Positions 1,246-62,700 of a stretch of DNA of 64,000 bases are shown piece after piece. Source of the DNA: Seison nebaliae. Taxonomy: Eukaryota. A model generated the notes under the pieces. The model ran no database searches. It was not told the origin of the DNA and saw only the letters and a program-made list of their open reading frames with translations. The first letter of the stretch is position 1; the number at the start of each line of letters is the position of its first letter. A program made the position numbers and the translations under genes. The stretch lies in NCBI GenBank assembly GCA_023231475.1, contig JALJEE010000987.1, positions 1 through 64,000 of the forward strand. The letters are read 5' to 3'.

Positions 1246-1773
1246 TTAATTTCTCGCGGTTGTTGTTGCTGCTGCGGTTGTTGCTGTCGCGGTTGTTGCT
1301 GTCGCGGTTGTTGCTGCTGCGGTTGTTGTTACTGCAGCGGTTGTTGCTGCTGCCGCGGTTGTTGCTGCTGCCGTGGTTGTAGTATCGTCGTTGATTCCTA
1401 GGACATCATTCACGTTGTTTGAAATAGTGGAAGCAACTATATATGATGAAATTAGAATTTTAGATAAAATTAATATAAATTAATTAACCATCCAAAATTT
1501 CTTCATCTAGGTCACTTAAAGCTAGACGAATACTTGTTAGGAGAATTTATATTGACAAAAAATTAACTTCCTGTAACTGCCCCAGTAATACCACCAATAG
1601 CAGCCAAAATTAATAGTGCCGCTATAATCAAAGTTGCCATTGGCCCTAAAGCGCTTTTACGCTTCTGTTTTACAACTGGAGATTCAGTATTTCTAGCATA
1701 ACACAATAAAAAATATAAAATACGTATAGGATAGGAAAGTTCTAAACTCTATTGGTATCGAAATTGATGTCAT
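1246..1773 (-). CDS. Small type II membrane protein with Ala/Thr-rich C-terminal tail (4 exons; missed by the ORF track)
   Basis: GT-AG introns 1693-1747, 1522-1567 and 1437-1488 join an open frame MTSISIPIENTESPVVKQKRKSALGPMATLIIAALLILAAIGGITGAVTGTLSDLDEEILDVASTISNNVNDVLGINDDTTTTAAATTAAAATT...ARN*. A basic patch precedes a hydrophobic helix. Confidence 0.7.
1254..1382 (-). repeat. Coding low-complexity repeat (GCA/ACA/ACC codons; ~15-nt units)
   Basis: Tandem units of gcggttgttgctgct type on the + strand encode (TTAAA)n on the - strand. Confidence 0.9.
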
Positions 1774-2794
1774 GTTATTTTAGTATTTTTGTAAGTTTGG
1801 AACAGTATATCTTTCAACTGATATCTCATCAATGAAGATACCACTTTTATATTCATATTAATGACGTTCCTATTTGCGTCATAAGTTAAAAGTTGAAGTT
1901 CATGCTCTTTTATCGACCAAATTAGAAGGAATGTCAAATTTTCTTCTAACGATAGAGAGAAATACGTATTTATCTCCTTGAAACTAATTTTGCATTATGT
2001 TTCCAATTAGTTTGAAACATTTAAGATGTATATCAACAATTTAAATGAATTCAAGGTTTTATCTTTCAAACAATATTTGGTTGAGTATTTCTTAAATTAT
2101 TGTTCAACGGCTGCAAAGTCAACTCAAAAACTAATTTCGATTATTAAGTATAATCATTAAGATAATTATTGAACGATTTTCAATAAGTAACTATATCCAA
2201 GGTAATGAATTTAATTATTGCCATAATAATCAAACATCTTGTAACTAATTTCAACGGGTGTCATCCATCGTTGGTGTCATCGTAATGCGAACGATAAGGA
2301 TCTACTTCGTTTTGAATTTATCTTTAGAGGAAAAAATCCAGTCCCTGTTTCTTGTTTTCGACTTTTCGATCGACAGTTTTCAACCCTCATTTTAGACATT
2401 CCCGAACTTAATGTGCGACTTTGAACATATCTCTACCTTATAAATATTTAGAGTGTTGAATCATACAGATCTCAACGCTATAAGTAGTATTTCAGATAAA
2501 AATAAAATTGGTTAAATTAAATGAATTAAAATAAATAGTATTATCTCATGATTTCTGAATACGGTTCAGTATTTTTTCTGCTTAATATTTTATTAACTTA
2601 AATCCAGAAAATTAACGGAGCTTATATTATTTGACATACAAATGTACAATTGGAAAACCAGTAATCATCCATTAAATGTTTACTTCTTATAATTGGAGAA
2701 AAGAGTAAATGTAATTGAATGAAAATATTGAAATAAAATTATAGTTAGTAAATTTAGTTAATAAAAAAAACTATAGAATTAGAAAATAAAATCT

Positions 2795-4291
2795 TTAACG
2801 TCTCAATATTAAATTCACCGGAGTATCTATGAAAAGGATTTTAAATTCCTTTCGGAACTTCGTACTCATACAACAATATATAAGAAAATTTATAGCATTA
2901 TTCACTAACGCCATGACGTCAAATATTGGCCCGAGAGGAAGGTAAACGTATAGAAAAATATTCTTCTGTTTATATATATAACGTTCTATAAGAGCTGCCA
3001 TCAATATGATGCCCTGGGGGAGTTCTACAATGATGAAGAAGGCACAAACAACGGTCAGAAGTGCAGTTGTTTTTTGATGTTCATCCGAAGGCGATGAGGA
3101 TTTATATTTCTTCTTAAAGAAACGTAAGGCTCTTATTTGAGTTTTTGGTTTTTGATAAAACTGAGTGTTGCTCTTATCGCCATTATTAATTATGTTAACA
3201 TCGTCATTCGTTTTGGTCAACAAAATTCTTTCATCTTGATTACCATTTGCTTCCTTGCAGTAAGAAATATCGCTCTTTCTGTTCAACACTTTACCATGAG
3301 TGTTCCGTCCCATAATCTTCAAATGGTTTTTATGTGCTTTGCTTAACACTCTTATTAATATTGAACTTATCAAGATCAATAAGACAGATGGAATTATTTT
3401 CGCGATTAGTGCTTGATTGTAGAGATTAATTGAACTGTATTTTGAATGGTTCTTTGTATGACGACCTAAAATTATATTACAACATGTTCATATGCATAAG
3501 AAAAAAAAACCTGTGTAGAATTGTAAAACGGAATTATCATCCTTTCGACATTCTATATAGACAATTCGATAGAGAAAGAATGAAGGAATGCAGACAAGAA
3601 TAGTTATAATGGCTGATGCAATGATTGTTATGATGATGATAGGAATGCGATAAATCTTTCCTCCAATTCCATTGCTATGTTTAATAAAGAGGTAGCGATA
3701 TAGACCTAATATGACGGTTAACCAAATACTGAGAGTATGTGTCCAAATTGATAGTTGTTCGTAAAAAAATGTAAGGAACAGAACCCAAAGAAAATTGTAT
3801 GATTTTAAAAAAGTTAAAAAATCATTATTCACGATTTGTCTCTGGTGAGTGGTATAAATGAGAAAAGTACAGATAGTAACAAGATCCGAAACGGCTAGTC
3901 CATTCAATAAAGTATTTGTCGGATTCCTCATTTCCTTTTTGCTTAATACAATAATATTAAGTGTATTAAGAACCAATCCCAAGATGCATACCACTAAACT
4001 GACTGTTGCATGATATGGTCGATAAGATCGATTTAACTTCTGAGGAATATTTAACGTCTTATTTGCAAAAGAACTTTCACTTGACGACCTTAATAAACGA
4101 TAGGTCAATTCCATATTCGTATAATCATTCAATGTTTTACAATCAGCTATCATAGAAGGTTTTCCATCGGGAATTTTGGTTGTTGTCGTCCAAGGATATA
4201 AGTTGTTCAGTTGTGATAAATGTGCAGTAGTACCATTGGTGGTGGAGCCATGTTCAATAAGGAAAATAAATAAAAGTAAGATCATTCTCAT
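2795..4291 (-). CDS. Rhodopsin-class neuropeptide GPCR, myosuppressin/FMRFamide/DMSR (Srw)-like; 2 exons
   Basis: Seven hydrophobic segments and motifs NPTNTLLNGLAVSDL, HTLSIWLTVILGLYRY, ELPQGI, NFLIYCCMSTKFR. Intron 3466-3510 (45 nt) joins the two ORFs in frame. Confidence 0.9.
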
Positions 4292-12736: not shown

Positions 12737-15098
12737 TCAGAGAACACTTGTAGCAGTAGATGAAAAATTTTTCGAATCGTTCTCCAAATTATTCTGATCG
12801 ATCGTTGAAGGAAATCTCGTTTGTTGACTAAATATTACATCTTCATTATCTATATTGTCTGACAAGGATTGGACATTACTTATCCTTTCATTACTAATCG
12901 ATTGCTCATTAATTCCATTTGTCATATCAAAGTCATCGGTTGATCTTAAAGGCGAATATTCCATAGAATTATTTCGGAAAAAATTTTTCGATTTTGAAAT
13001 GAATCGACGAATATTTGTCGTACGTTGAATAGGCGCTAAATGTAAATTAGACAAATTAACAATTGCCATTCTCTCTTCTTCATTGTGAATGGTTGTTTGT
13101 TGGTTATTTGATGGTTTTGATACAATATTATCATTCGAGTTGTTTTCCAAATGTTGTGCAAGTCGCATATAACGTGGATTATCAAGAGTGGGTCGGAATT
13201 GATATCCGGTAATGACGAAGAAAATCGCAGTTGCTATTTCCGCAAACAGTTCATCCAGCCATCCCAAATCGAATGAAACGATTATCTAATTGTGAAAAAA
13301 GGAAATCAGTAGGAATTTGATTAGAATTTCAATTAACTTTTATAAGGAAAACGATGATGCGCGTGAAATAAATATAAATAATAATCGAAGTGTAAAAATG
13401 GCGAAAGATTCTTAGTTTTGCCAATGATGAATGTAATTTACCATCGACAACGGCAGCTCTCTGTAAATGACGAACTGACCAAATAATTGGAACGAAAACG
13501 GCTCCACAACAAAGTAGATCAACCAGAAAGAAGATGTTTCTCCATACTGTGACACTCTCTTCACTCCTTTCGCCTTCTTGAATAATGACGTCAGCAATGT
13601 TGGCAATTAATTGCAATGGAATAACTAGAAAGAATAATCGTTTTTCTCCCACTGAGAGAACGTGTTTAATGAACGACCATCCGGATCCCACCATCAACAC
13701 AGCAATGAACAATAATAAGCCTTTGCAAAGATGAACGATATAGTAAAGGATGGCCCACGCTCGTTCATGTCGACCATTAACGCCGATATAATATAAATTT
13801 AACTAAAATTAATATGTTGATGGGAAAAATTAAAGAAAATTTAAACTGAATGTAACATCAACGACAATGATTTTACGTAAATTAACGATAGCATTAACCA
13901 ATGTATTCGTAGAACTGGTGTGGCCGAAACGGCATTTGAGAATTTCTTATAAACTTCTTGTCGATTATTATCTATTCGATTATTAGACGATTGGGAGGAT
14001 GCAACCTTTGATTGTTGATGACGTTTAAGGAGAACGAATAACCAAACATTGGCAATGAGGAAGAAGATGACAGATAAAGCGAAATAGACATATGGCAAAG
14101 GCGCTTCATCTGCTGACAAGAAAGAACGATAATTTCTTTCATAGACATTCACGTGAAAATTCACAGAATAATCTTGAATTCGATGATTTGTTTTATCTGC
14201 GCAGTTTAGGAAATAGAATGAATATTGACCGGTCTCATCTTCGCGTTGAACAAGAACACTAAACTAATAAAATTCTAAAGAAGAAATTGAATCTTATAAA
14301 AAAAACTTCAAAATTGATTTTTGTTTTGTTCTCGGTAAATTCATACGATAGTTCTCTTGACAAAGGAATCATTGTCGAAATGTCAACAGTTGAAGAAGTG
14401 TGATGAATGGATGGATGAGATATATCACTTAAATCTTTTGTACCACTTGCTCTCATGAAAGAACTGATTCGACTATTCGCTGAATTCATCGTTTCAAATT
14501 TGTTCAACAACTGTAAAAATTCGACGGATTTACCTTTTCGATCTAATTTAATTCTAAAATAAAAGATTAAAATACATTTTCTTCTAATCTTCCAAATTGA
14601 ACTTTTTTTCATTATTTAAAAAAGTGAATATAACACTTCCTACATTCTTATCTTTTTTCGTTCTTGTCGTTCTTCCTCCACATGCTTCCATTCGCGTATC
14701 CTACGAATAAAATTCAACTATTCTTCATTAATAAAATAAAATACCAACACCATAATAATTGGCAGTCATATCTCTTCCATAACTAGTATATGTTCGTTCG
14801 AGAACAAATGAAAACTAAGAATGATTATAAACAAATCATAGAGCAACATCTAACTGGTACTGTTTCTTGAGTTGAGAATAAAGTATGATTAAAATTGGAA
14901 ATTTTAAAGGAGATTATTCCATTTTTTAAAAGTCCAAAAGATGCTAATGTAATTTTAGGACGACGGTCATTCTATGGAATAAAAAATTCAATTAAAACTT
15001 TTTAGAGAACTGGAAAAAAGAACATTAATATTGAATGAATGGATTCGACTATCTACATATTGAACAAAGTAGAATGTAACAAGTATAAAAAATTTCAT
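12737..15098 (-). CDS. GPR107: GPR107/GPR108-family (Lung seven transmembrane receptor) protein; 8 exons
   Basis: Spliced N-terminus MKFFILVTFYFVQYVDSRIHSFNINNDRRPKITLASFGLFKNG; motifs FLSADEAPLP, GSGWSFIKHVLS, LVDLLCCGAVFVPIIWSVRHL, FFVITGYQFRP. Seven short introns, all with GTT donors (e.g. 13286-13337, 13803-13846). Confidence 0.9.
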
Positions 15099-17085: not shown

Positions 17086-17631
17086 TATTTCAATTAGTTC
17101 GATGAAAAATCCTCGTTCTTTTATCAAACAAAAAATAAATATGCGAATGATTCAACAATAAACGAGCGTTTTAATTTTATTAGAACGATTTCTTCCGAAA
17201 AAGACTTATGATTTGAATTGAAAATTCAATTATCTTCTTTCAATTTCATTGAATTCAATTCAATCTTAAATGTCATCAATTTCATATAGATGTTATTGGA
17301 TTGTATTTTCCTGAAATTATCATCGTTTTACTTCATTTTCTCTAATGTTTTGTTGGTTGGAATTGGAAAAATCGAATTTTCTGTGAGAAATAAATTTTAA
17401 TTAAAATTTATCAATTAATATAAAACTTCTGAACTTTGTAAATTGAAGAAAATGTATTGAAAAAATTAATTTAAAACTCGAAATATTTCTAGAAGACTAA
17501 AGTAATTCTCATTGAATGAATTATAATACAAATCTATAAAACTCTAAATGATAGAATGATTAAATATTTATGGTTAACCAAAATTCTTCTAATTATTCTA
17601 CGGTAGAATGGAAAGCTTATAAGTGTTTATT

Positions 17632-19164
17632 ATGGCATTATCTCCTTCCTCCGTCATCCGAGAGATCAAAAAGATTGATCGAAAAATTAGGAAACAAAAG
17701 AATGATTCATCGGAATTCCAATTGTTGGGCAAGAATGATGAAGAGTGGTCAAAGTTCTTCCATTATTACATCTTAAATGGAACAATGAAATGTGACGACG
17801 ATTTGTTGTTTTATGTAAAAAAGGAAGCAGATGGCAAAATTATCAAACCCAAAAACGATGAAGTTTTTCTATTTCTTCCCATCAAACTTTCAGTTCCATT
17901 CAATTTGGAGATAGTAGAGGTGAAAGTTTTCCGTCGAAATACAACGGCCATTCCATCATCGAAAGATCTGTCTTTTAATTGGAAAGATACGATCTTACTG
18001 AATATTATCATAAATAATGTTCTTTTTTCATCTTTTTCAATTTTATTATTCTTTTGTTGTTTGATGGAAGATGACATATAGATTAACATTAGCTATTTGC
18101 GCCATAAAACAAAAAGAATTATTTGTAATTGAAAAGAAAACAACCGTTTATCTTTTTCTCTTCAAGAACAATTAATGAATGAATTGGATTTAGGAAGTTT
18201 ATGCAACGCCTAGTCAACGTCAGATGAATGGTAAAGGTGTGGAAGAGAAAATGGCATTCCCGAACATTTACTTTCATATTGATGATTTTGAAAATGTTTT
18301 GTTTTCTTTAATTGTTCGTTAATTGAAATTGTGAGAAGACATTCCAAAACATTCGAATAAAGAGAGATCATATAGCTTGTGTAGAATTAGTGGGCGAGGT
18401 GGCTGATGAAGACAATAAAGTTCACGAATATGTTCTATTTATCGGAAGCATCAAATATGAGATCTTGAAAAATATTTATGATTCAAAGGTTCATTCATCC
18501 ATTGATCATGTCTCGATTATTTTGGATAAGGAATTGGAGAAATCGAACAAATCATCAAAAAGAAAAGAATTCATTCGAATGAAAGGACCGAATGTTTTTT
18601 TATTTCTTTTTTTGCAGTTTCAATTGATAAATTGATCATTTGCAGAGTGTTGGATTTGCAGAAATGGCCGTATCGAAGCCAATTAAGAAAATGTTAGTCA
18701 AAGGACGTCATTCCATGTCAACCAGACCATCAATTCAATTCGACCAAATGAAAGATGTTCCACAACCATCTGTAATGACGACGTCTTTAATGAATGAGAA
18801 TGTTTTCTCTGAGCCACAGTCTCCATACAAGTCGAAAATGAACCGAGAATATGAAAGAAAGACAATGTTCCAACCGAAATATCGTACTGATTCTCTAACG
18901 AATTGGTTCAGTACAGGAAAGGAGTTTGGCGGAAAGAACTTCATAAAAAGTATCCAAGATATGGCATACATGTCACTAAGTCGAATAAATAGTAAGAGTT
19001 CAGTGAATGAAGATGGAATGAATGATGATGATGATGATGAAAATGATTATAAGTACGAAGAGCAATTGAATGTCCAATTGACATATACGACTATTACCCT
19101 CCAGACTATAAGCACCATTCTATTTGCATTAAGTAGTCGCATTCCGATTTTGAATAAGAAGTAA
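17632..19164 (+). CDS. KIAA0930: KIAA0930 / DUF2045 family protein; ~7 exons
   Basis: Spliced product contains DDLLFYVK, VKVFRR, NWKDTILLNII, VYATPSQRQMNGKG, FPNIYFHIDDFE, CVELVG, LFIGSIKY, EFIRMKGP and GFAEMAVS. Six inferred short introns. Confidence 0.85.
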
Positions 19165-23461: not shown

Positions 23462-25340
23462 TTATTGTTCCATCGTATTTGTAAAATTAAGAATTGAGGA
23501 TGGTTCACCTTGAAGTTGACTCATACGAATGGCGTTCTCTTTATAAGCCGATTGGTATGATCGTCGAGGACCAGTCGTCAAATTTTTCTCTAAAGGTGAT
23601 TGTTCATTCACATCAACCAGACCGTCATTGCCTGGAGGGATGTAATATGCATATGATTTTTCATCTTAACAAAACAATTATTAAAAACACATAAAAGAAA
23701 AAAATAATTTAAACTATTATTTTCCGATTTAAATTGTCGAAATTGTTGATGTGTGAGAGGCGGTTGTTGTTTATCAATTGTATTTTGGTTTGTTATTTGT
23801 TGCTGGTTACTTAATTGTTCACCAGATATCTGACCACGTTGACCATTGGGAAAAGTTATGTCATTACTTGTATCTGCCAAGTTGGAATTATTGAAAATTA
23901 TAAAAAAAATGAGAATAACAATAATTAGTTCTTGGTGTTGCAGGAGGAATGTTTTCTTGTGTTGTAATATTCACATTATTTGGAACAATTGCTGATGATT
24001 GCATAGCTAGAACGGAATAGTTTGTTTTACAAATTAGATTGTTACATTTGAAAAAGAATATTTTCCCCTAATAATAATTCCAACTACAAAGCCAAACTAG
24101 TTGTGGAAATCGAGTAAATTTAGAGAAGATTTGTGCAAGGAAAAACAATCATTCTCACAACTAAATAACAGAAAGCGAGTTGATAGAATTCGATGACTTT
24201 ACCTGGATTCCTGAAACGAATATCACTAAAGTTAAATTCGCTTCCTGTTGCATTCGACTGACGAATAGTATAAGATGCAGCACTCGGCGTTAACATATGA
24301 CGTTCTGCATCTGTTTTTAATGAAAATGATTGAGAATAAGAAATATCAACGTAATATTCCATTAATATTAAGATCAGCACATATAAAATAAAAAAAAGTC
24401 AAAAATGATGATATAAACCTGCGTTAACGAAACCTTCAGTTACACTGTGGAAGTTTTTATCACTAAAAAGAAAATAAAAGATTTAAAGTTTTTGAGTTTA
24501 ATGAACTTCTTAAATTGTTCCTTCTCTTTTGCTGAAATGAGAGAGATATAAGTTATAAGGTTTAGTTATAAAAGTAAATTGTGCAAAATGAACCATAATT
24601 CTTTTTGTGTTTGACAACGCCAATGATACATCCGACTAATATTCCTAGTAATGCTAACACACCAAGAACAATGAACACAATTTTTAAAATTTCTTTCATA
24701 TAACAAGAATAATAAGAGAAAGTAAAAATGGAATTAAAACGGTATCTTTCTTCATCAATACGTTGATCATTTGTTAGGACTGGTTCTCCGCAAATACGAC
24801 CAGTTTCTTTCAAAACTTTTAAATTGAATTGTAATAAAAGAAAGAGAAATAGTTAGGAAAACTTGAAGTCGATTTTTCAATGATATTCAATTTAATACAT
24901 GGACCAATATTGCCTTGAATGGACGAGATGACACATTTAAATATTCTTGGTATATTTGAGTTTGCCGTTACTTCTTCTTTAGGGATGTTTAATCGTAAAA
25001 CTTTATCTGAATTACTAGTCGTCCAATTTCTGAAAGCTTTGACTTGATTGCCTACCGCTAACAACATCCATTCATCATCTCTTCTTAATGTCAATGAATA
25101 AAATTCATTATCATTATTGTTGTTGTTGGATATTCTGATATCTTTCTGAAAACCAAATCCGAGTAATACAACCGAATCGGCATTGACTGTTGGTAATCGA
25201 CAGTCGATTGTAGCTGGTTGACCCTCCCTTATGCAAATATGACGTAGTGATGAACACATTTGTGTGAAATCATTCTCATCACATACAACCAACAAATAAA
25301 GGAAGTATGAAATCAGGAAAGTTGAGATTAAATAATTCAT
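23462..25340 (-). CDS. Single-pass membrane protein with a divergent Ig-like ectodomain and a multi-exon cytoplasmic tail; ~9 exons
   Basis: Signal peptide, EGQPATIDC...FKC pattern and TM segment IVFIVLGVLALLGILVGCIIGVV. Eight inferred introns keep the frame open to ...FTNTMEQ* (e.g. 24693-24740, 24311-24418, 24007-24202, 23874-23919). Confidence 0.65.
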
Positions 25341-27026
25341 ATTTTTCGCTTGTAAAATTTGCTTTGTAGTAATGAGTAAGTTGGAATGATTGGAGATAAT
25401 TAATTGGTTTGATGATTAAGAGTAATAGATTAAGTGATTGATAAAAGGAAATATAAATGATGAAGTGTCTTGTTACTTTGATTCATTGAATATGAAACGG
25501 TAATATCAGTGATCGTCACAACGATGAAATGAATGAGAAATTCACATAATCACATATGACTAACAATTTATCGTTCTTTTGAAAGGAAATGCACTTCACT
25601 TCAATGAGTTACGTCTTCCGTCTTCTCTAAAATGTTCATTATTCTCTCTAAATGTTGTTCCAATCGTTTTCAGTTGTCAATTAATCTTCTTTCGCGTTCG
25701 GGACATTATCCTATTAACATTTTAAGTCTCTCTGAAACAACTTGCTGCACTCTTTACTTTTAAATCTAAAGCTTGTACAAACATAATTGTGTAAATCCAA
25801 ATTATTTTTAATTCAACTATTCAATCAATTTACCTTGACATTTTACCGTAATAATCGGTAATTTTCACTATAAAACATACATGGAGAGTGTGAACCGCAA
25901 TATGTGGGAATGAATAACACAAATGTTTGATTAAGCGAAACAAGACAAGAAATATCGATTAACAATTGTGGGAAAATATCGCTGTTCTATAGTAGGAATT
26001 CTGATGTAGAGATATTATTGTCATACAATATATATTGCATATACTATATGTATTATATAGTATTGTTACAATTGTAACCACTTTTACTGATAGACGTCAA
26101 GACATATTGATATATATGATAGATCGACCATTTATACACTGCTTACTGCTACAGATATCTTATACATTCTTGATATTTTTCACCAAAAATATTATATTAT
26201 ATGATGAAAATATTAATAAATCGGATGTGAATTTTGCCCGTTATTGGAAATTGAACAAACACATAGTTATTCTTTACTATTGACAATGTGAACTTTAATG
26301 TGAGTCATGAACTAATTGGTAAACTAAAAACTAAAGTCACCATTCGACGGAAGTTCATACATAATCATGCTATCTGTGTTGTTATTTTGATAAAATTATA
26401 AAAAATAGATATGGAAAAGATTTAGTTTTCTCGATAATTAAATGTGCGTATCTTTAATTTGAAATTCACCTTTTTTATGCACGTCTCTGAAATCTTCCTG
26501 TTCCTGAAATGTTATCGTTGATTCAAATTTATAAAAGATTTTTCGAAAAAATAAAAGAGTGAGACAAAGATGTATTTTCTTGTCCCATTGACTTGCGATT
26601 GGCGAGATTTTAATTTAATTTAATCAATTGTTATCAATTTAATCTCATTCGAATGAATAATCATCAATAATGAATTTAATAGTATACTATGTAGTATACT
26701 ATGAATTACTAGTGTACTCTATTATAATGAACTCAATTTGTCCAAGCCACGGATATGTTACTATCCTTTTATATCTGTCTTCATTTCTTTATTCTTTGTT
26801 GTGCAAAAATAAAAAATTATTCCTTTACACACTTTAAAATGAAAATATTTTATTTTCATTATAAATTTACTTTTCAATAATATTATATATTTAATATGTT
26901 ATAAGGTTAAAGATTGTCGTTTATTTCACAAAAGACTGGAAACCGTAGAAAAAATTAACAAAGAATAAAATACTTTTATAGAGATTTACGATCTGCTTCT
27001 CAATCGTTATTAGAGCGAAGAAAAGT

Positions 27027-38353: not shown

Positions 38354-40168
38354 ATGTATTTGGAACACCAGAAACGTTGTGAAGTTTTCATTTAGAAATT
38401 AAATTTTTGAAAGTTTTTCATTTTTGTACTTTAAGGTTATTCTGAATGAAATCAGTGGAAGTGTCGAATTGAACGAAAATAATGGTGATATCATTTTCAC
38501 AAATGAAGAAGACGAAGAGGCATTCCAAAAAGTTCACGCCATTGATAAAGGTAAGAATCGGTCGTTGGAGAATGTGATTCGTCGAAAATTTCTCCGTATC
38601 TGTCAAGATTTGACTACTACTAACAGAAGAAGATTACTATTGAATTTGTGGAATATTTGTATTCGATGTGTTTATGATGGGATAGTTGGAGATGTGTTAC
38701 CTATAATTTTATTACATGATCTTTATTCATGTTCATCGCTCGATGATTGTGAAGAGATGTTTTTCCTATTAGAGAAATATTCGATTGTTTGGAAGAAACG
38801 TATAAATTTTTCTCATGTGCAGAATAACATTCTTCGGTTATGTAATGGTTGGTATTTTTTTGATTAAGCTTTAAGAAATTTAAGAAATTTTCAGATTTAT
38901 TGAAACAGTTTCATAAAATTGATAAAAATAATTTTTGTGGGAAAATTCAAATGTTTTTAGCGAATCTCTTCCCACTAAACGAACGGTCAGCACTCAATCC
39001 GATGGGAGCGATCAATGTTGAAAATGTGACGCATTACATTGAGAATGATAAAGAATTTGAAAAAGATATTCAAAGAGAAATCAATTTGAGAATGATGACA
39101 CATCGTGAGAGTGACAATAAAAATATTCCTTTTGGATTTTATATGAAATTTTGGTCGATTCAAAAATATTTCTATAATCCTCATCTCCTCAATAATCGAA
39201 GTAGTTGGTTGAAATTTGTGGACAGTATCAATGAAACGTTGCAAAAATTCCATATGACAAATGAAAAAAGGAACGAAAACGATAAACATTATCTCAATCA
39301 ACTTCAATTTAATATGAATAAATCCATCGATCTATTCAGATCAGAGAAGGATGTTGATTTTTTTTCGTCCAAATATCTGACTAGTGCCAGTTTATTAGCA
39401 CGTCAATTTGAGGATGTAACTTTTCAACGAAACCTTTTAATTCAATTCTTAATATTTTTCCAATATTTCCATAAACGGAATCGACATCAAACTAATATTC
39501 ATTTATGGAATGAACAACAACAATTCATAAATTCGATAACGAAACTAATAAAATTTACTTTGGAACATTCTTCAAATAATTTCAATTTAGTATTGACAAT
39601 TGATAATATTTTAGAACGTGAACAAATTTGGAATGAATGGAAATTGGGCGGATGTGTATCATTTCTTCGAAAAAAGAAAGAAAAGAAAAATGAGAATATG
39701 AAAAGGAAAAGAACGTTAGGTGAAGATGTTGAGCATCAGTTACAATTAAAATATACAAAATTGGGTAATGTTGAATTGGATCAATTGTGGAATTATCGAT
39801 CGGATAATCTATTGGCATGTCAAGCCACACCAGACAAGTTAATGCCAAACAATCGCGATTATTTTGAGGAAGCTATCATGCAATCTGATCCAAGTAGTGG
39901 AATAGAGAAAGAATATTTATTGATCAAACAACCTCAATGGGCATGGAAAGCTTTAAGATTGTTATCTTATTCTTTAGCGCCATATGTTACTGCCAACAAC
40001 AAAATGTTATCAGGCGAAGATAGTTTGAAACTTTATTGCGAAAAACAATTGAATGAAAAAACGAGTAACAAACAACAAAGTCGAACATTATCATTAAACA
40101 ATAATATTCCAACTCCAGTTCTTCCCATTTCTACTGCTCCTTCTAAAATAGTTAATGGTCAGAAATGA
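38354..40168 (+). CDS. THOC1: THO complex subunit 1; 3 exons
   Basis: ILRLCNDLL, FCGKIQMFLANLFPLNERSALN, FYMKFWSIQKYF, KYLTS and ILEREQIWNEWKLGGC; introns 38384-38435 and 38848-38894. Confidence 0.92.
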
Positions 40169-44777: not shown

Positions 44778-45601
44778 ATGTTGAAAACAACTAAACCAGA
44801 AAGTTATTAAATTCTAATTACCTTTTTGTTTTTCTTTAATTGTTAATCATTAGCTTGGTATATCCACGAAATTCCAAAAAAAAGATCAGTTTCGGCTTAT
44901 GCGACCAGATTATCTGAATCGTGGAGAATCTTTGACGATTCTAATTTGCCAGACGATGGAAGAAAACCGGGAGAAGTTTGGATAAAGGAAAGTGATTCAG
45001 ATTTTGTTCGACTTTGTAAGTTAGGCGGCCGACCGGGTTTACTAAAATTCCACCCTGGTAAAAAAAGCTCAAAGCCGGTTGGATATCCACGACCTGATTG
45101 GTTTGCTCATCCAACTACTCAATCAGCTATTGCTACGGAAGAAAAGTTGAACTTATTTATTGTGAAAAACTAAGTTTTTATTTTCAGGTTTGAATTTGGA
45201 CAACCGAGTTGGATGCATGTAACCGAATTAGACATAGGTTGTCAAAAGAACAAGAAGAAACAAGTTCGAAGAAATTTTTCGAAGACGGCTGCTCCTCGAC
45301 GTTACACTAGAATGCAAGAAATGGAAAACATAAGGAAAGTTGAACAAATTATACCTAATAGCTACTTGATGCAACAAGAACGTCAACGTCAAAAATTAAA
45401 AGAACGTCTAGCTCTTAATAAAACAGCTGTAACGTTAGTCATCATTGTACAGTTAAGTCCCGACATTTAATAGAAAAAGAATGAATAATAAATTTTTGTG
45501 TATTAACTTTTTTTAAATGTTTCTATCTTCCGCTTTATAGGAAAGATGATGGAGATACTACTATGAAAGCAATACTTTCTAACCAATATGCACGTGGATG
45601 A
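44778..45601 (+). CDS. C7orf57-like protein; >=4 exons
   Basis: Spliced MLKTTKPETWYIHEIPKKR...WIKESDSDFVRLCKLGGRPGLL...YPRPDWF...MKAILSNQYARG*. The DSDxVxLxKxGGRPxLL motif is recalled from C7orf57 homologues. The last intron may hide a micro-exon. Confidence 0.65.
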
Positions 45602-45968: not shown

Positions 45969-47449
45969 ATGAGAGAAATCATTCACATACAAGCTGGTCA
46001 ATGCGGTAATCAAATTGGTTCAAAATTTTGGGAAGTAATTTCTGATGAACATGGAATTAATCCAAATGGAGCTTATATCGGCAATTGTGAAGCTCTACAA
46101 TTAGAGCGAATTGATGTTTATTTTAATGAAGCTGCCCAAAAAAAATATGTCCCACGGTCAATTCTTATCGATTTGGAGCCGGGTACCATGGACACCGTAC
46201 GTACTTCTGCATTTGGTCGACTATTTCGACCTGATAACTTTATTTTTGGTCAAGGGGGTGCCGGTAATAATTGGGCGAAAGGACATTATACTGAAGGTGC
46301 AGATTTAATTGATGGTGTGATGGACGTTGTAAGGAAAGAAGCCGAGAATTGTGATTGTATTCAAGGCTTCCAAATGACCCATTCAATTGGTGGAGGTACG
46401 GGATCTGGTATGGGAACATTATTAATTTCAAAAATCCGCGAAGAATTTCCTGATAGAATGATGTGTACTTATTCAGTAGTGCCATCTCCAAAAGTTTCGG
46501 ACACTGTGGTCGAACCATATAATGCCACATTATCCGTACATCAACTAGTTGAGAATACGGACGAAACGTTTTGTATTGACAATGAGGCATTATACGACAT
46601 TTGTTTTAGAACGCTAAAACTTACATCACCTACATATGGCGATTTAAACCATCTTGTATCAATGACAATGTCGGGAGTAACAACGTGCTTAAGATTTCCC
46701 GGACAACTTAATGCGGATTTAAGGAAACTTGCAGTTAACATGGTACCGTTTCCTCGATTGCATTTCTTTATGCCAGGCTTTGCTCCCTTAACATCCCGAG
46801 CTATTAAGTCATACAACTCATTATCAGTTCAAGAATTAACACATCAAATGTTCGACGCTAAAAATATGATGGCCGCTTGTGATCCAAGACACGGTCGTTA
46901 CCTTACCGTGGCTACAATCTTTCGTGGACAGATGAGTATGAAAGAAGTTGATGACCAAATGCTCCATATTCAGAATAAGAATGCAGGATTGTTTGTTGAA
47001 TGGATTCCAAATAATGTGAAAACGGCAGTGTGTGACATACCTCCAAAGGGCTTGAAGTTTTCGGGCACATTTATTGGTTGGAATTTTATTTTCCTTAATC
47101 TATTCTACTCTGAATATTCGAAAATTTCTTCAATAGGTAACTCCACGTGTATCCAAACACTTTTCCGACGAGTTGCTGAACAATTCACTGCCATGTTCCG
47201 ACGGAAAGCTTTTCTTCATTGGTACACTGGAGAAGGAATGGACGAAATGGAATTTACTGAAGCTGAATCGAATATGAACGACTTAGTTAGGAGACTATTA
47301 GAAATTGGATGATTATTTATTTTAAAATTCAGATAAGTGAATATCAACAATATCAAGAAGCAACGATTGATGATACGGTGGAAGATGAACCGGAAGATGA
47401 GCCAATTCCAAAAAAAATGGATACTCAAAATAGTGTTGAAGAAGAATAA
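45969..47449 (+). CDS. TUBB: Beta-tubulin, divergent isotype; 3 exons
   Basis: MREI start, GGGTGSG. Introns 47077-47136 (60 nt, read through in the ORF track) and 47286-47332 restore FIGNST and [14 protein letters not shown]. Confidence 0.96.
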
Positions 47450-47619: not shown

Positions 47620-49931
47620 TTATTTTATGTTTATAGTTCTCAATAAAGCATCTGCTTCTGCTTTTAAATATTTCGCTGGTTGACTAGCTTTCCTTATTAA
47701 TCGGAAATAAAGCATTACCATACAAGAATAAATAATCTCAATAAATAACAATCCTGCTACTAAACTACCGAACATGGAAATCGCAACAGCATAACTTTCT
47801 TCACGACAAGTATTATCAGTATTCTTCCGATAAATTATACTCATTTTAATCATCTGGTATTCTTTCTCCTCTTCAATCGGTTCTCGTTCATGCATTTCGT
47901 CTGATGGATATAATGTATCTTCCAAATCTGTGTCGACAACGTTCGAATAATTATTATAAGCGGTGCACTTAAATCGTAATATTATAGGTTTGGTTAACTT
48001 TTCAACATCTACAAAATTAAGATGAGTTTATTGTGACGAATAAAAACGAAACCATAATCGTTCGTATGTAAATTATATAAAGGTGGATTGTCACTCTCTC
48101 GAAAGATTTCCCCGATGTGTACGAAATCAATTAATTTCAATTTACAAATCGGAATCATACCTTCCTGCCACCAACTTTCTGCCAATAATTTCTCACAATA
48201 TCGTGTGATATTGATGAAGCCGCCCGTATTTCCTTTAACATAATAAAAGTTGTATATTGGAATAGGATTTCCAACAATTTTACAAGGAACATTTAGGTAA
48301 TAATCTCGAATATTTTCATTTTCATCAATAGTTTTTATATAAGTAATATGGCGTCTGGAACATGGTACGACGACTGGTGCAAAATGAACATTAATTCTCA
48401 ACGAATCATAATATGGAGTCAATGTCAAATCAGACTTGTCCATGTATTTTCCATGACCATAAATATGGTCGATAACGTCGACAATTTCCTTCAATTGAAA
48501 ACTTTGTTTAAATAATTTTCCTTTCGGATAAGTGAATAAGTTGAGAACATCTGAAGTTAGGTCATCGCCGAACAATATTTGAACTGATTTACTATCAGTA
48601 AACTTATGTTTTTTCAAGTAATAAGAATATGCACTGAAATTGGTAACTAATCCTGTCGACTTTAAAATATCTACTGAATATAAATATTTTGCAATAGGTA
48701 AACCTGAATTATCCCCATATATTTTCTGATGTATAAACTTATACCGAAAAGGCCAATTGTCGGGTTCATTAAAAAAGATATCTACATTAAATCGGAATAG
48801 TTTTTTAAATACTTTTAATGAAAACATATCACCAATGAGACAACGAAATTGATGAGAATGATCAATGTAAGAAAATCTTCGTTCAATTATTGAAAAGAGA
48901 TCCACAATAAAAATAAAGTTTCTATCATTATCAAAAGTGTTGAAAATGCCACCTTGACTCCGATTGACATCGGCGTAAATGTATTTTAGATAATCATCAT
49001 TAACAGTCGATTGAAGACCACCCCCATAAATATTCCATAGAGCAATGAATCTATCAAGATAATGGTTGACTTCTTTTGAAGTATGTTCTTTTTGTGGGAA
49101 TGTCGCATATTGTGGTTGCATGATATAGGCGATTGAACTGGAGAATATTGAACTTTCAGCTTGACGTCTTTTAACAGACGACGTATCAACAGTTAAAGCT
49201 GATTCGATAGTTAATAAATCTTTGATTTTGGTGAAGGAAGTGTTATACAAATAACTAGAGATAGCTATTCTCGCTTTACAAGTGAGTCGACCGAAACCCG
49301 AATTTTTTATAAATTTTTTCTTTTCTAATCGACTCTTGTTGACATCAATGAAAATTCTCTTACTTATACCAACAATATCCAGATCTGGTGGATCGACCAA
49401 AACAATGACTTCAATAACTCTTAATCTTTCCCGCCAAAATGGACTGGGACTTTCATAACGACCTGCATTTTCTGATCGGACTTCTTTAAAAAACTCGATC
49501 CACACTTGGTTTGTTTCGGACGTTCTCCAAATACTAGAAACGGTGTGAGACGAAATTCCATTTGCTGTCCAATACATCAATTCACTTGTATTAGATAGAG
49601 ACATACTAGTAAGAAAAATACGATCGGCAAATATCCATGCGTCTTGCCATGTGTCAAACTTGACTGCTGTTCTATCTCGAAATGTTTTCGATATATCAAA
49701 TATTAGAGGTTCGCCTTCCTTCACTATAAAAACTGAAATTCCTTTATGTCGCCGTGCATATGATAAATATGCCTCATAATTATCTTTTACTGTTTCTAAA
49801 TTTTCTGCTTCATTCGAATAATCAAGATATGATGGTAGAAATGATTCGAATGCATCCAGTTTCGAAATTTTTTCATTTTCACTAATTTTGAGGAAAATAA
49901 GAAAGATCAAAACTATTTTTAATATACACAT
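47620..49931 (-). CDS. Type I membrane protein with divergent Ig-like domains; 2 exons
   Basis: Signal peptide, ENAGRYE, LTCKA, FRC, CKIVGNPIP and (after a GTTTC...TAG intron) FKCTAYN. C-terminal TM segment AVAISMFGSLVAGLLFIEIIYSCMVMLYF. Confidence 0.65.
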
Positions 49932-50030: not shown

Positions 50031-51789
50031 TTAGTTGAATAATAAATCATTAAAACGTTCCAATAACATAGCCATTGATGTTCGATAAGTTGTTAACGTT
50101 CTGACAATTCGGAAACGATTGGCTCGTTCAAAATTCGATTTTACTAATTCATAATATTCTCCATCACAAATGGTAAAAGATCTTAGACGGCTACATCTCA
50201 ATCTTAAGTGGTCGATAAATTTTGAAGATTTGTTGTTGAATCGTAAAGTTTCCGTATCCCATTGAACCTCAAACCGCCTTAACGATGGACAACTTAAGGC
50301 GACTGCTTCGATAATTTGATCGATATGAACTCTAGCGGATATTTGACGATAATTTCCATAAGCAGTTCCCACGATCAGAACTCTTAAATTTAAATTTTGT
50401 TCAAACTAGTGGAAATGCAAAAATGTTAACTCTACATTTTTTAAATAGCAGATTGTGCTATTCCAAAATTGTTCCGTCAATTTTGGATTACCTGCATAAC
50501 AGAAACCCTTCAATTGTTTCCCATGAATACTGATAAATCGTTTAATTGCATCGCCGCTTGTATGAATAGTATGACTGAGATTGAGCGCTTTCAACATTTT
50601 AGAACGTTCTCCTAATAATGACAAAACCTGTTAAGAAGTGGTTAATGTTGATAATAATAATTTATTTAATTGAAAACTTTGTCTGTAAATCCATCACAAT
50701 AGGCGACGTTCAAATAAGTAAATCCGTGAGGCAATTTCCGCACTATATTTTCTATGCAAGATTCAGATAATTCGGTTGAACAGATATCTAATTCTCTAAT
50801 ATTATTTGCATTCTCCCAATCGATTGAATTAAATGCATTGTCTTCAATTCCTGTAAAGAAAAACATTAAAAGTAATATCATAAAATACGGAACCAGTATT
50901 TCTTAATAATAAAGTTCTCATTTTTTTACATCTGTTTAATAGTGTTACGAAGGAGTATCCTTTCAGTTTATGGCAATAGTGAACAGCGACAACTTCCAAA
51001 TGAATGCAACCACTGGCAACAGCTTCGATATGAGCGTCATCGATGAAACCGACACCAAATAAATTCAATATTGTTAAATTAGGTGTATGTTGTTTAATTT
51101 TAATGATGTTAATTGTTTCATATGGTTCTTCATCATAAATCGAGTAATCTGTCGTTCCAATTAAAGTCAATATTTCAATTGAAGATAAGGAAGTATATAC
51201 ACAACGCATAAATCCTTCTAAGAATATGACTTCACTCAAACAAATGGTTAGGTTCTTTAAATTGCATGGAAATGAATTTAGATCATTGAAATCATGTAAT
51301 TGCATAGCTGTCGAAAAGTCTAATGTCATATGTTTCAAATATGGACATCGATTGGCTAGAACATGGAGAACGTTTGCTGTAATCAATTCACATGATAATT
51401 CGATATCACTATATTACAATATAATGAATTTCATCAATCAGTTAAAAGAAGAAAAATTTGAAAATTAACGTCAAAGTGTGACAAAGTTTTTTACTTAAAA
51501 CTTTTAGAAACAAATCCACATTTCTTATCGTTAATGTTTGGTCATATAATAATTGTTCCTTCCGAATATCAATATCATCATTATTGTTTTGTGGAATACC
51601 ACGCAGGTTTAGATATGTCCATAATCTCGTGTCTTGGATCAGATGATGCCATTTCTTACAAACTTTCATGCATGTCAAATGTTGAGCATGCGTCAAATAA
51701 GAAAAGCAGCGTAATAAGATTTTATCATTCAATTGATTGATATTCAACTGCATTGATTGTGATAGATCATTAAATGAAGAAATTGGCAT
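50031..51789 (-). CDS. F-box/leucine-rich-repeat protein; 5 exons (upstream exons possible)
   Basis: F-box INQLNDKILLRCFSYL...VCKKW followed by cysteine-containing LRRs. Four GTT introns join the five ORF pieces in frame. Confidence 0.88.
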
Positions 51790-57277: not shown

Positions 57278-57329
57278 CGAATTAGGTACTGTGCTGAGCG
57301 TTTAAAGCACAAAAAATGTAAAACAAAAT

Positions 57330-58916: not shown

Positions 58917-58972
58917 GGGGATGTAACTCAAATGGTAGAGTGCTTGCTCAACAGGGATATCTGGCATCTTCA
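58917..58972 (+). pseudogene. Internally deleted tRNA-Ala pseudogene
   Basis: GGGGATGTAACTCAAATGGTAGAGTGCTTGCT matches the 5' half of animal tRNA-Ala and ...GGCATCTTCA matches the 3' acceptor strand. The anticodon 3' side and most of the T arm are missing. Confidence 0.75.
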
Positions 58973-59743
58973 GCAAATTCTTGACTGGATCATTCTTCAA
59001 TTGAATGAACAACATCAACAACATTAACGGCATTTGAATTCATGTGTTCTCTTCACTTGTCCTCCCATTATACGGACTCGATTCTCTTAAAATATTCGTC
59101 TCCAACAGCTCATTCGTCAAAATGGACTGAACTTACAACAATCGTAATCTTATTTTCGCAGTCACCGACATATCTCCATTTCCTATTCTCTATTGTCTAC
59201 GCATTTTCCGCGTCTTACAACTTTTCAGCATCGGGTCTCTTCACCAACATATCATGTCTTATTCAACGCTCTATCAAATCGAATAATTCCGTCTTTTCTC
59301 ACACCATTGTACACTATTCGATAGATCACTCACCTCTTTCAACAGAATTTCGTGAGTTCATCTTCTCGTTTTCATCAGTGTCTCGGTTAGTTGGCTGCCT
59401 TAAATTCTGTCAAAAATTATCCAATACCCTGATATTAAAAAATCAACCTAGGGCCTTGAACATTTTCCGCGAAAGCAACGTTTGAATTGTCCCTGTATGG
59501 GAATTTACAGACTTCTTTTTTCTTTTTTTACCTTTATAAATTTTTTCCTACGTAAGATTACTGGATTTGTCTGTAACTCTATTCAATCTTATTCCTTTTT
59601 TTCTCTTTTTCTTTCTTTTGCCTCTTATTAAAAATAAATAAATAAATATTATTTAAATTGTTTTTATTGAAACTTAAATTAAAATAGTTAGATGAAAACT
59701 GTAAATAATATATGATAATTATTAAGAATTAGTTTAAATCAAA

Positions 59744-62700
59744 TTATTGGGATGCTGATTGAGATTGAACTTCTTCGTCCATAATCATAGCCTGCCCTGC
59801 TGCAGCATACGAAAATACACAAAGAATGGAGTAACATATTCGATCGGCTTCTTTCTACAAAAAAAAGCAGGTTCAAATAAAAATAAATTCACTTCTGCAG
59901 ATACTAATCACAATGAAATAACGATTCATAACAATTTGATGAAAGTAATAAAATATTGAACTAATTTGGAATAATAATAAAAATAAGAAAATTTCACTGG
60001 TATTTAACACTCATACGAAGAAGAGATTATGGAATGTTTGATGTTATTCGAATATTCGAATGTTAATGGAAAGTGTTTGACATTCATTCAAAATTAGATG
60101 ATAATTCTAATAGAGTTGAAGGACGTCTTTCCAAAGAAGCTTCGGCTTCTCCAAGCGCTGCTGAATTTTCATTCTCTCCATTATAATCCCCTTGGTCGTC
60201 ACAATATGGCACATTCATACTTGTTGTGATGAGAGTGATTGACGGAGTATCACCTAATTTTCTTGGTAATAATATTGAATTTCTTTTCATAATTTGTGGT
60301 CGATTATGTTTCCTTGAATTATTATGTTGGAACACGATGGAAAATATTCGATGTAATTTTAATGCAATATCTTGAAACTACACAATTTTTGCACAAGATA
60401 CACAATTAATATCACAAAAATCAGCACAATAAAGACAAAATATAAAATAAAACGTAGAAAAAAATTACTTACAGCGATCGAATAATATTCCTTTTCGTAC
60501 AATTCTCCTGAAATAATATCGAGCACTTCTATGACGAAAATATTTCCCTTCTTTGTTGTACATTTTTTGATACGAGACAACTCGATAAATTCCTGTAAGA
60601 GAAAATTGAAATTTTGAAAAGAAAATTAAAAAACGGAAAATGTAGGGTAATTAAATTGAAGTCCCTCCAGACAAATTTCAACAATACCATTCTCTTTGCT
60701 TTCCAAATCAGTTATCTTGAAGTTTCCTCCCAATTCTTGTCCTTCATTTAGAATGATAAATAAATTTGTATACACGTGAATTTAAGAAGAATGAAGACCT
60801 GGAATTTTTTCTTGCATACGTATCGCCGCATTCTCCATTGCATCTTTTATTGAAAAGTACAGATCTTTACTTTGCTAAAAAGTTTTTCTTGTCGTGAATA
60901 ACTAAAAGGATAAATAGGAGATAACTTTTCTTGTATAAAATTTTGATAATTCAGTTTCTCCATCAACATTCGTCCATAAACATAGCACTTTAGTTTTAGG
61001 ACAGAATGTCATATTCACTAATTTCTCGTACCACCAACGTTCTTTGATCTCACCTAGAACACTTCTAATAATTATACAATCATCACAAACCTTTTAATTA
61101 AAGATAATTTGAATATGAAAGTGAAAAGAAAAGAAAAGAAAAGAAACTTCCATAAACATTAATTCACCAGAGTTGTCTGTTCCTAAATGAGCGGCGAATG
61201 AACTTTTCGATATTAATCGACTATTGGCTGGTTTTAAATCTACATCATTTCCATTTAATTGACTAATATGATCAGATAATTCATTTATTTGTTGAGATAA
61301 GACGAGACCAATATGACATTTCCCTAATAGTCGTCGTACCTTTCGACGAATATCTTCTCGATTCACTTTCATCATTATCATAAAAGCAATGAGATTGTAG
61401 AGGAAAACTGTCAACAATTGATCTTCATCTAATTCTAATCGTTTCTTTTCCGCTAATTTTAAAGTTAAATAACGATCCATCATTTCGCCTGGTCCTAAAG
61501 AAAGATGAGGAAAATATTTTGAAAATTAAAAAGAAACCTTGATCCATTCCAATCATGTCACGTTCTTGAGCAACGGCATCAAGAAAGGCATCTTCCCAAA
61601 ATTGCATAGAATCCCATAAATGAGAACGATTTGTAAGTAAATTCTCAAACACATAAAACTTGTCAGGACTGACACTCGTCGTTAAAATCGTTCCATACCG
61701 ATAACGATATCCACTGGAGATATTTGATTTGGCTGTCGGCAAACCATAATTCATAGACATGGTATAATTGTATGAAATGTTTGAATTTTTTATTCGACTG
61801 GAATTAATTGTTGATGAAATAGAACTATTGTCACTAATCATTGATGTGGTGAGATTGTTGAATGATTTCTTATCATTATTACCAGACAAAGAATTCATTG
61901 TGGTAGATGGGACGGTTGAATTAATATTTTGTGATGATGCTTTCTCAATTTTCTGCCAAAAATGCGTATGAGCTAATTCCAATAATTGGAATGCACTTGC
62001 CATTCCTCCCAATCCATTATTTGCGTACGTCCGTTCCAATCCATGAATGATGAGTTGACACAGTTTTACTGTTCCTTTATAAACTTCTTTCGATATTAAC
62101 TAGAAAAAATGGAAATAAACGATTATAAAGAATATTAACCACATCATCGATATGTTCATCAGCATGCTTCAATCGACGATTTAATGATGTATTCAAATGA
62201 GATAAAATAAAATTACGATAATTCTCATCTTCCATCAAGCGTTTCGTTCGTGTAATTTTCAACCATGGAACACCTTCTCCTTTCAATACACTAATAACAA
62301 CTTCTTTCAAAAATAACTGATTATCACTAAAAAAAATAAAGAAACGAATCAATGATCAATGAACAAACGATGAGTAAAATGAACCTGTGAGTAGCACTTT
62401 GTATTTCCATACTATGTTTCCGTTGGATATCACCATGATCTTCATCCAACAAATTCTTCGAACTACTTCGACTTATCGAAATCTTCTTATTTGGCACATC
62501 ATCTTCTGTTGTTCCATGTTTCTGCTGTATTCGTAACAATTGAGGAGAATCAATTCGATCACTAGGCAATGTTTTTGGTTCATTCTTTCTCAATGATATC
62601 CAATCCTGAAATGTCGCTTTCGCTCCATTACTCGCATTCTTCATCACATCTGCCAAATCATCACCAATTAATGCAATTACTGATTTACTTTGTTGTTGTT

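What the first reader, a model, noticed from the sequence alone, without database searches (positions are those of the whole stretch)
1437..62387. Genome-wide-looking switch of the 5' splice site to GTT, with no U1-type consensus beyond +3
Seen: of 50 introns reconstructed by hand in 14 genes, 47 start GTT (GTTTT, GTTAA, GTTCA, GTTTA, GTTAG, GTTAT, GTTTC, GTTGG and others), 1 starts GTC and 2 start GTA. Many are fixed by conserved proteins, e.g. beta-tubulin 47077 and 47286, THOC1 38848, GPR107 13337 and 13846, GPCR 3510. Positions +4 to +6 show no AGT consensus, and most introns are 40-70 nt. Established: animal donors are usually GTRAGT, read by the U1 5' end (ACUUAC) and the U6 ACAGA box, and U at +3 is normally uncommon. 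AT-richness alone would favour GTA as much as GTT. Inference: the spliceosome here has altered specificity (variant U1/U6, or protein- and length-driven short-intron definition). I cannot check whether this is already described for this lineage.
Basis: partly seen in the sequence, partly recalled or inferred. Interest (0 to 1): 0.9.

Follow-up and report, generated by a model that had tools for sequence, protein, structure and literature searches.

The report
Animal introns that start with GTT
In this stretch of the rotifer relative Seison nebaliae nearly every short intron begins GTT instead of the GTA or GTG usual in animals, a start that matches the standard U1 splicing RNA no better than nearby decoy sites, so this animal has likely changed how its splicing machinery reads intron starts.

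Summary
Confirmed for the window. It is Seison nebaliae DNA. Published transcript alignments (PMC8351084, supplement 2) give 43 junctions with 41 donors: 38 GTT, 2 GTA, 1 GTC. With 12 modelled introns the count is 50/2/1 of 53, against about 50% T inside introns (P = 3e-12). Positions +4 to +7 are near background and exon ends are A-rich. Short-intron donors match canonical U1 no better than decoy GTs (4.08 vs 4.04 of 9). Bdelloid MADD introns of similar length and base make-up are 70 of 86 GTA, including positions shared with Seison, so old introns switched. New here: both GTA donors sit on long, alternatively spliced introns, and the MADD one is GTAAGT in bdelloids too, hinting that canonical U1 survives. 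Most likely mechanism (inferred, about 45%): a variant U1 with A opposite +3 serves length-defined short introns. U1, U6 and the genome-wide logo could not be examined. The closest known case is Entamoeba (GUUUGU, coevolved U1); ten literature searches found no report for Seison. This scan earlier noted GTT donors in protists, but of a shifted-register type that is not enriched here.

The parts
292..351 (-). 60-nt intron, GTT donor at 351, in a transcript antisense to a VWC-like ORF
   Evidence: transcript row
1437..1747 (-). Threonine-rich membrane protein gene: 3 introns, donors 1747, 1567, 1488, all GTT
   Evidence: transcript row matches model
3466..3510 (-). GPCR (Srw/7tm_1) intron, GTT donor at 3510
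   Evidence: frame logic only, Pfam; no transcript row across it
13286..15023 (-). GPR107: 7 introns (donors 15023, 14854, 14748, 14602, 14306, 13846, 13337), all GTT, 40-52 nt
   Evidence: transcript row; homologues for three
17381..17426 (-). 46-nt 5'UTR intron of the DEAD-box helicase gene, GTT
   Evidence: transcript row
17863..18645 (+). DUF2045 gene: GTT donors at 17863 (transcript-supported, GAG acceptor) and 18019, 18146, 18296, 18594 (modelled)
23665..25564 (-). Unnamed membrane protein gene H: GTT donors 25564, 24862, 24740, 24593, 24506, 24418, 23919, 23714; cassette exon 24203-24310
   Evidence: transcript rows
24007..24202 (-). Exception 1: 196-nt intron with CAG|GTAAAG donor, downstream of the cassette exon (skipping isoform joins 24418 to 24007)
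27316..27368 (-). EAPP intron, GTT
   Evidence: transcript row, Pfam continuity
31764..31811 (-). VWA-domain gene intron, GTT
36943..37555 (-). RUN/Rubicon-homology gene: 4 introns (donors 37555, 37360, 37191, 36990), all GTT
38384..38894 (+). THOC1: GTT donors 38384 (frame logic) and 38848 (human homologue)
   Evidence: no transcript row across them
44803..45540 (+). DUF5524 gene: modelled GTT donors 44803, 45146, 45452 (the last ambiguous)
   Evidence: no transcript row
47077..47332 (+). Beta-tubulin: GTT donors 47077 (60 nt) and 47286 (47 nt)
   Evidence: three non-Seison homologues; NCBI model P0017 agrees
48009..48052 (-). Intron of unnamed membrane protein gene O, GTT
50383..51469 (-). 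F-box/LRR gene: 4 introns (donors 51469, 50893, 50677, 50430), all GTT
60593..62384 (-). MADD: GTT donors 62384, 62139, 61537, 61147, 60925, 60634; GTC donor 60798
   Evidence: homologues and transcript rows
59855..60472 (-). Exception 2: MADD donor GCT|GTAAGT at 60472 serving two alternative last exons (acceptors 60378, 95 nt; 59855, 618 nt)
   Evidence: both isoforms in transcript rows; same arrangement in bdelloid loci

Best explanation
In this window of Seison nebaliae short introns start GTT after an A-rich exon end, and they are likely read by a variant U1 snRNA that would carry A opposite intron position +3, with intron length and U-richness probably doing the rest of the recognition. 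Shown: the donor pattern; its match to canonical U1 at decoy level; GTA at the same intron positions in bdelloids; GTA kept only on two long alternative introns. Inferred: (1) the rotifer ancestor already had short introns with a weak +5 (bdelloid +5G 29 of 86); (2) in the Seison line a U1 copy changed at the base facing +3 and old introns followed by point mutation; (3) a canonical U1 persists and serves long or regulated introns; (4) the A-rich exon end pairs with the U5 loop 1 uridines and makes up for the missing +4 to +6 pairing with U6.
For: 38 of 41 transcript-supported donors GTT; 49 of 50 introns under 90 nt GTT and none GTA. U is preferred over C (1 C among 51 pyrimidines vs 19.7% expected, P = 2e-4), as an A partner would give and a G partner would not. 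Canonical U1 does not separate real donors from decoys (AUC 0.53); a +3U-complementary U1 does (AUC 0.76; largely by construction). At 6 MADD intron positions shared with bdelloids Seison has 4 GTT, 1 GTC, 1 GTA, the bdelloid loci 22 GTA, 2 GTT, 2 GTG of 26. Both GTA donors are among the 3 donors of introns of 90 nt or more (Fisher P = 0.004, transcript set) and score 7 and 6 of 9 against canonical U1 vs mean 4.08. Exon -3 to -1 are A-rich (27, 27, 25 of 48 vs about 17.5 each). Precedent: Entamoeba and Mastigamoeba U1 changed to match their donors, and Physarum is said to hold standard and modified U1 side by side (bioRxiv 10.1101/2022.06.08.495308).
Against: No Seison U1 sequence was seen. 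Even a +3U-matched U1 would pair less (mean about 5.1 of 9) than canonical U1 does in bdelloids (5.97) or other animals (6.35). -1G is at background (12 of 48 vs 8.9) and +4 to +6 nearly so, unlike Entamoeba, where a changed U1 goes with a strict hexamer. The same paper reports that most lineages with atypical donors (+4 changes) kept a standard U1. The long-intron link rests on 2 donors, found after looking, and a weak donor could be kept simply to allow alternative splicing; length vs U1 match over all 53 is not significant (rho 0.24, P = 0.08). The exon-end result is from 18 uncorrected tests.
Confidence: 0.45

Rival explanations
1. The snRNAs are unchanged. U1 base-pairing is bypassed or relaxed for short introns, which are defined by length and U-rich-binding proteins (TIA-1-like, U1-C, LUC7; names recalled or from PMC11732430); +3U is read by a protein pocket or by a G-U wobble with U6 G44, and the exon end by U5 loop 1.
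For: Little information beyond +3 (0.01-0.13 bits per position at +4 to +8); introns U-rich from +4 on (55% T vs 31% in bdelloids); canonical-type donors on long introns; the one short non-GTT donor is GTC, which could pair with G44. PMC11732430 (passages) says +3 A/G interacts only weakly with U6 G44 and that C. merolae splices without U1; the Entamoeba preprint notes GUU could pair better with an unchanged U6 ACAGA.
Against: G44 pairing should accept C at least as well as U, yet C is depleted (P = 2e-4). A general U-tract signal would not single out +3 (94%) while +4 is at background (18 of 41). Flanks outside +1 to +3 still match U1 slightly better than GTT decoys do (2.08 vs 1.55, P = 0.002).
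Confidence: 0.35
2. U6 changed: the ACAGA box carries A in place of G44, giving a Watson-Crick pair with +3U at activation; U1 is standard.
For: Explains the U-over-C preference at one position only; donor commitment is thought to occur at transfer to U6 (PMC11732430).
Against: The box is close to invariant (recalled); Entamoeba kept ACAGA despite GUUUGU. The gene H donor CAG|GTAAAG would then have no U6 pair beyond +2 yet is spliced.
Confidence: 0.1
3. The pattern is real but local to this contig or region (as in genomes with an atypical chromosome), not genome-wide.
For: All 53 donors come from one 64-kb window.
Against: 16 unrelated transcription units agree; window GC (about 30%) is near the assembly's 31.9% (PMC8351084); gaps on other contigs in the rows seen are in the same short size class. 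A diverged second version keeps the GTT at 60925 (one contig, depth under 4).
Confidence: 0.07
4. Composition or modelling artefact (T-rich introns, hand-picked donors), or recent GTT-bearing introner insertions.
For: Introns are 50% T; 43 of 103 rejected frame-compatible donors were also GTT.
Against: Transcript junctions give 38 of 41 with a single GT-AG reading each; bdelloid introns with 41% T are 8 of 86 GTT; 6 of 8 MADD introns sit at positions shared with bdelloids.
Confidence: 0.02

Closest known systems
Entamoeba GUUUGU donors with coevolved U1 (ACAAAC); Roy and Bowser, bioRxiv 10.1101/2022.06.08.495308 (passages and section 22 read)
   Same: U at +3 in nearly all introns; loss of pairing with standard U1 at +3.
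   Different: Entamoeba is intron-poor with a strict GUUUGU hexamer (88-90%); Seison has several introns per gene here, no +4 to +6 consensus, an A-rich exon end and canonical donors kept on long alternative introns. It is an animal.
U5-class (AG//GUNNN) 5' splice sites; Parker, Fica and Simpson 2025, PMC11732430 (passages read)
   Same: Weak intron-side (U6) pairing with information on the exon side.
   Different: That class has -1G and still A/G at +3; here -1G is at background, -1 is mostly A, and +3 is U.
Bdelloid rotifer short introns (measured here, MADD loci)
   Same: Median 56 nt, AT-rich, weak +5G, TAG/CAG/AAG acceptors, shared intron positions.
   Different: +3 is A (70 of 86), -1G 53 of 86, A-rich at +4 to +12.
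Shifted-register (+1) donors GTTNNGT
   Same: Intron starts GTT, often after a non-G exon base.
   Different: No +6G/+7T excess here (4 of 48 GTTNNGT; +6G 6 vs 3.5, P = 0.14).
Minimal-signal short-intron definition in ciliates; non-canonical introns of the tunicates Oikopleura and Fritillaria (all recalled, not read)
   Same: Compact genome, narrow intron length peak, few conserved donor bases.
   Different: Ciliate donors keep +3A; the tunicate cases change the terminal dinucleotides, which stay GT-AG here.

Membership tests
U2-type (major) spliceosomal introns | GT...AG termini | tested here: met
   43 of 43 transcript junctions read GT-AG
U2-type (major) spliceosomal introns | Donor consensus complementary to standard U1 (GTRAGT, -1G) | tested here: not met
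   Short donors 4.08 vs decoys 4.04 of 9; met only by the two long-intron GTA donors
U2-type (major) spliceosomal introns | Branch-point motif near the 3' end | tested here: inconclusive
   Of 8 four-letter motifs only TTGA (13 vs 8.2, P 0.02) and TGAT (P 0.03) were slightly above shuffles
U12-type introns | RTATCCTT donor (recalled) | tested here: not met
   None among the 53 donors listed
Entamoeba-type transformed donor with coevolved U1 | +3U in nearly all introns | tested here: met
   50 of 53
Entamoeba-type transformed donor with coevolved U1 | Strict +4U +5G +6U | tested here: not met
   +4T 18, +5G 6, +6T 23 of 41
Entamoeba-type transformed donor with coevolved U1 | U1 snRNA with a complementary changed 5' end | not testable with these tools
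   No genome held; no Rfam hit in the window
Shifted-register (+1) donors | G at +6 and T at +7 | tested here: not met
   +6G 6 vs 3.5, +7T 24 vs 24.3 of 48
U5-class donors (AG//GU) | -1G with -2A | tested here: not met
   -1G 12 vs 8.9 expected; -2A is enriched, 27 vs 17.7
Introner-derived introns | New positions not shared with relatives | tested here: not met
   6 of 8 MADD positions shared with bdelloid loci, a seventh with mite-like loci
Introner-derived introns | Sequence similarity among introns | not tested
   No all-against-all comparison was run

The most novel reading that the evidence does not exclude
Seison is an animal running two donor-reading routes in its major spliceosome: a new one (variant U1, or no U1 pairing at all) for the roughly 95% of introns that are short and read AAR|GUU, and the ancestral U1 route kept for long, alternatively spliced introns. 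Tens of thousands of old introns would have been rewritten at +3 since the split from bdelloids.
Probability: 0.4. Interest if true: 0.9.

Novelty: new variant of a known kind. Interest (0 to 1): 0.78.

Why it matters
The +3 purine and U1 pairing are treated as fixed in animals. Coevolution of donors and U1 has been described in amoebae with few or moderate intron numbers; an animal with several introns per gene that flipped +3 from A to U across old introns would show how a core signal can be rewritten while many substrates depend on it. The assembly and RNA data are public, so U1/U6/U5 and a genome-wide logo can be checked in a day, and close relatives give the ancestral state. It also matters for annotation: the NCBI GPR107 model holds an intron that the transcript row and homologues do not support.

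Tried and rejected
No whole genome held, so no genome-wide logo and no snRNA or splicing-factor survey. Run search: no RNA holder listed; laying X1, X2, X3, X6 on 44700-64000 gave no splice joints at the window's introns; neither is used as evidence. Rfam found nothing in the window or in 8 related loci. The remote profile search never ran, so the F-box and DUF2045 genes lack homologue checks from it. PDB searches for DUF5524, EAPP and the F-box gene gave no junction-level alignments. My first length-pattern search of the supplement failed because rows run in + strand order. Dropped from my own 48 models: the RUN-gene intron 37447 (replaced by 37555) and gene H 24146-24068 (no transcript support; replaced by 24202). 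False introns from donor-blind prediction (for example 60124, 59911, 31625, 45498) were not counted in the curated set. Shifted register, U12 type, introner origin and composition were tested and rejected. Intron length mod 3 is even (17/21/15); stop content was not tested. A +3/-3 coupling is only a hint (purine at -3 in 11 of 43 vs 11 of 86 bdelloid, P = 0.08) and the paper I recalled on it was not held. Supplement 1 of PMC8351084 has no splicing terms.
Full report
Identity. The window's beta-tubulin is 100% identical to NCBI SNEBB_002317 of Seison nebaliae, and the best GPR107 hit is SNEBB_002304 of the same species and contig length. A quick tree of MADD (careful search unfinished) places the window's protein on a long branch in a rotifer clade with support 98. 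Seison is an epizoic member of Rotifera-Acanthocephala with a genome of about 46 Mb (PMC8351084, passages). No whole genome was available.

Gene models without transcript data. A predictor that scored every GT alike gave 40 of 49 and, with a length and acceptor prior, 43 of 51 GTT donors. A protein-to-DNA aligner with a flat donor fixed 2 tubulin, 3 GPR107 and 8 MADD junctions from non-Seison homologues; human THOC1 fixed 38848. My curated 48 introns in 14 genes were 46 GTT, 1 GTC, 1 GTA; the 16 homology-tier ones 14 GTT. These counts involve choice among frame-compatible donors, and a random choice would already give about 31 of 48, so independent junctions were needed.

Transcript evidence. 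Supplement 2 of PMC8351084 is a GMAP table of genome-guided Trinity transcripts (methods passages). The held copy is cut at 19,906 rows. Forty rows (numbers 9278-9318) have coordinates that coincide with the window's. I parsed 15 transcript paths that contain every distinct gap; gaps between consecutive rows of one transcript were taken as introns. All 43 junctions have exactly one GT-AG reading; the 41 distinct donors are 38 GTT, 2 GTA, 1 GTC. 35 of my 48 models matched to the base, one was unsupported and dropped, 12 were not covered (tubulin, THOC1, GPCR, DUF5524, four DUF2045), and 8 junctions were new. Rows beyond the cut may cover those 12. Read mapping favours GT-AG but to my knowledge not +3.

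Chance. P = 3e-9 for 38 of 41 and 3e-12 for 50 of 53. GT decoys within introns are followed by T 36 of 68 times.

Anatomy. Of 53 introns 48 are 40-71 nt. Among 41 transcript donors +4 is A 15, T 18; +5 is A 18, G 6, T 13; +6 is T 23. Only the +5 purine count exceeds background (P = 0.005). Information is 0.70 bit at +3 and at most 0.13 at +4 to +8. Exon ends are A-rich at -3 to -1 and at background at -6 to -4; -1G is not enriched (18 uncorrected tests), and real donors have more A there than GTT decoys (1.70 vs 1.02, P = 1e-4). Scored against canonical U1 (-3 to +6), 50 short donors average 4.08 and 125 decoy GTs 4.04. Excluding +1 to +3 a small U1-like excess over GTT decoys remains (P = 0.002). 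Acceptors are TAG 22, CAG 10, AAG 10, GAG 1 of 43. No clear branch motif.

Relatives. A metagenome scan with a rotifer MADD alignment returned 53 loci. I aligned all 53 and kept introns with both six-residue flanks gap-free and scoring at least 10, dropping near-duplicate loci (L001, L006, L026, L031, L032), L005 (no such intron) and repeated donors. Twelve bdelloid-like loci (10 inside the bdelloid clade, support 99; L019 and L021 by best hit) gave 86 donors: 70 GTA, 8 GTT, 7 GTG, 1 GTC, median 56 nt, 41% T inside. These repeat orthologous positions and are not independent. Three loci of an unnamed sister clade, probably monogononts (inferred), gave 3 of 3 GTA; other animals 7 GTT of 78. Six MADD positions are shared: Seison has 4 GTT, 1 GTC, 1 GTA where the bdelloid loci have 22 GTA of 26. 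So GTT is derived, hit old introns, and is not a by-product of short AT-rich introns. Acanthocephalans were not sampled. Runs X3 and X4 also hold a low-depth diverged version of MADD whose aligned blocks end at or within a few bases of my intron ends; in intron 60925 it shows 14 substitutions and 6 indels but none at the GTT among the 40 of 115 rows shown (one contig at depth 3.9). PMC8351084 reports two lineages in the species, which would fit.

The exceptions. Both GTA donors are on long alternative introns. MADD 60472 (GCT|GTAAGT) splices to either of two last exons, 95 or 618 nt away, and both isoforms are in the transcript rows. The same tandem exons occur in six bdelloid loci (four distinct), with GTAAGT in three and GTAGGA in one. 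Gene H 24202 (CAG|GTAAAG, 196 nt) follows a cassette exon. The third donor of an intron of 90 nt or more is CAG|GTTTAT. No intron under 90 nt has GTA (0 of 50; Fisher P = 0.002, 0.004 on transcripts alone). This is two donors and was noticed after looking.

Mechanism. +3 faces U1 position 6 first and U6 G44 later (U1 numbering recalled; G44 from PMC11732430, passages). The strict U-over-C bias (P = 2e-4) fits an A partner or a U-specific protein pocket better than G44. A changed U1 has precedent (Entamoeba preprint, passages and section 22), so I rank a variant U1 beside a surviving standard U1 first (0.45), unchanged snRNAs with protein- and length-driven definition second (0.35), a changed U6 third (0.10). 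No snRNA or splicing protein of Seison was seen.

Literature. Ten full-text searches found no description of Seison donors; 'seison' with 'spliceosom' gave 0 papers. The genome paper mentions introns twice and splicing once, none on consensus. PMC10125929 (passages) notes alternative splicing of Seison lamins only; PMC4901422 (passages) concerns GC-AG donors in cyst nematodes. Other papers were seen as listings only. Subscription journals are mostly not covered, and broad intron surveys may hold Seison in tables I could not see. Earlier notes of this scan describe GTT-NN-GT shifted-register classes in protists; none concerns this genome or look-alikes of its first 12 kb, and that pattern is not enriched here.

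Verdict. Real and transcript-confirmed in the window (about 0.97), probably genome-wide (about 0.9, untested), derived within rotifers, apparently undescribed. It is a new variant of the transformed-donor phenomenon whose molecular cause is open and cheap to test.

Noticed in passing
window 59744-60472 (-); L002:14306-14620, L007:15601-15840, L010:1602-1967, L013:1709-2099, L015:16569-17414: MADD has two tandem alternative last exons in Seison and bdelloids; a non-rotifer locus (L015) shows a weak match to the first exon as well as the second, so the arrangement may be old in spiralians.
   Followed up: partly
window 13554-13700 (-): The NCBI model SNEBB_002304 removes a transmembrane stretch of GPR107 as an intron; homologues and the transcript row show it is exon.
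   Followed up: yes
window 21-506, 23255-25673, 26919-27960, 31461-33221, 35100-37704, 47530-49547, 59652-60491: Many transcript rows retain one or more introns; could be nascent RNA, DNA or slow splicing of minimal donors.
   Followed up: no
window 21-506: A transcript with a minus-strand GT-AG intron (351-292) overlaps the end of a plus-strand VWC-like ORF (35-274): possible antisense RNA.
   Followed up: no
window 17863-17910 (+): In-frame 48-nt intron ending in a GAG acceptor; AAG acceptors are also frequent (10 of 43).
   Followed up: partly
window 15316-17085, 20435-22615, 28700-30982, 41805-42716, 43334-44629, 53471-56836: Several long genes (DEAD-box helicase, GDPD, NAD synthetase, trypsin, ThiF/rhodanese, a coiled-coil protein) have no intron in the coding region, next to genes with 7-9.
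   Followed up: no
window 56936-57610 and 58868-59511; also 6280-6740, 40420-40600: High-depth repeats in the laid contigs and short tandem-like repeats in the intergenic stretches; probably transposon remnants.
   Followed up: no
window 47178-47339: Paralogous beta-tubulin contigs in X1-X3 lack the 47286 intron.
   Followed up: no
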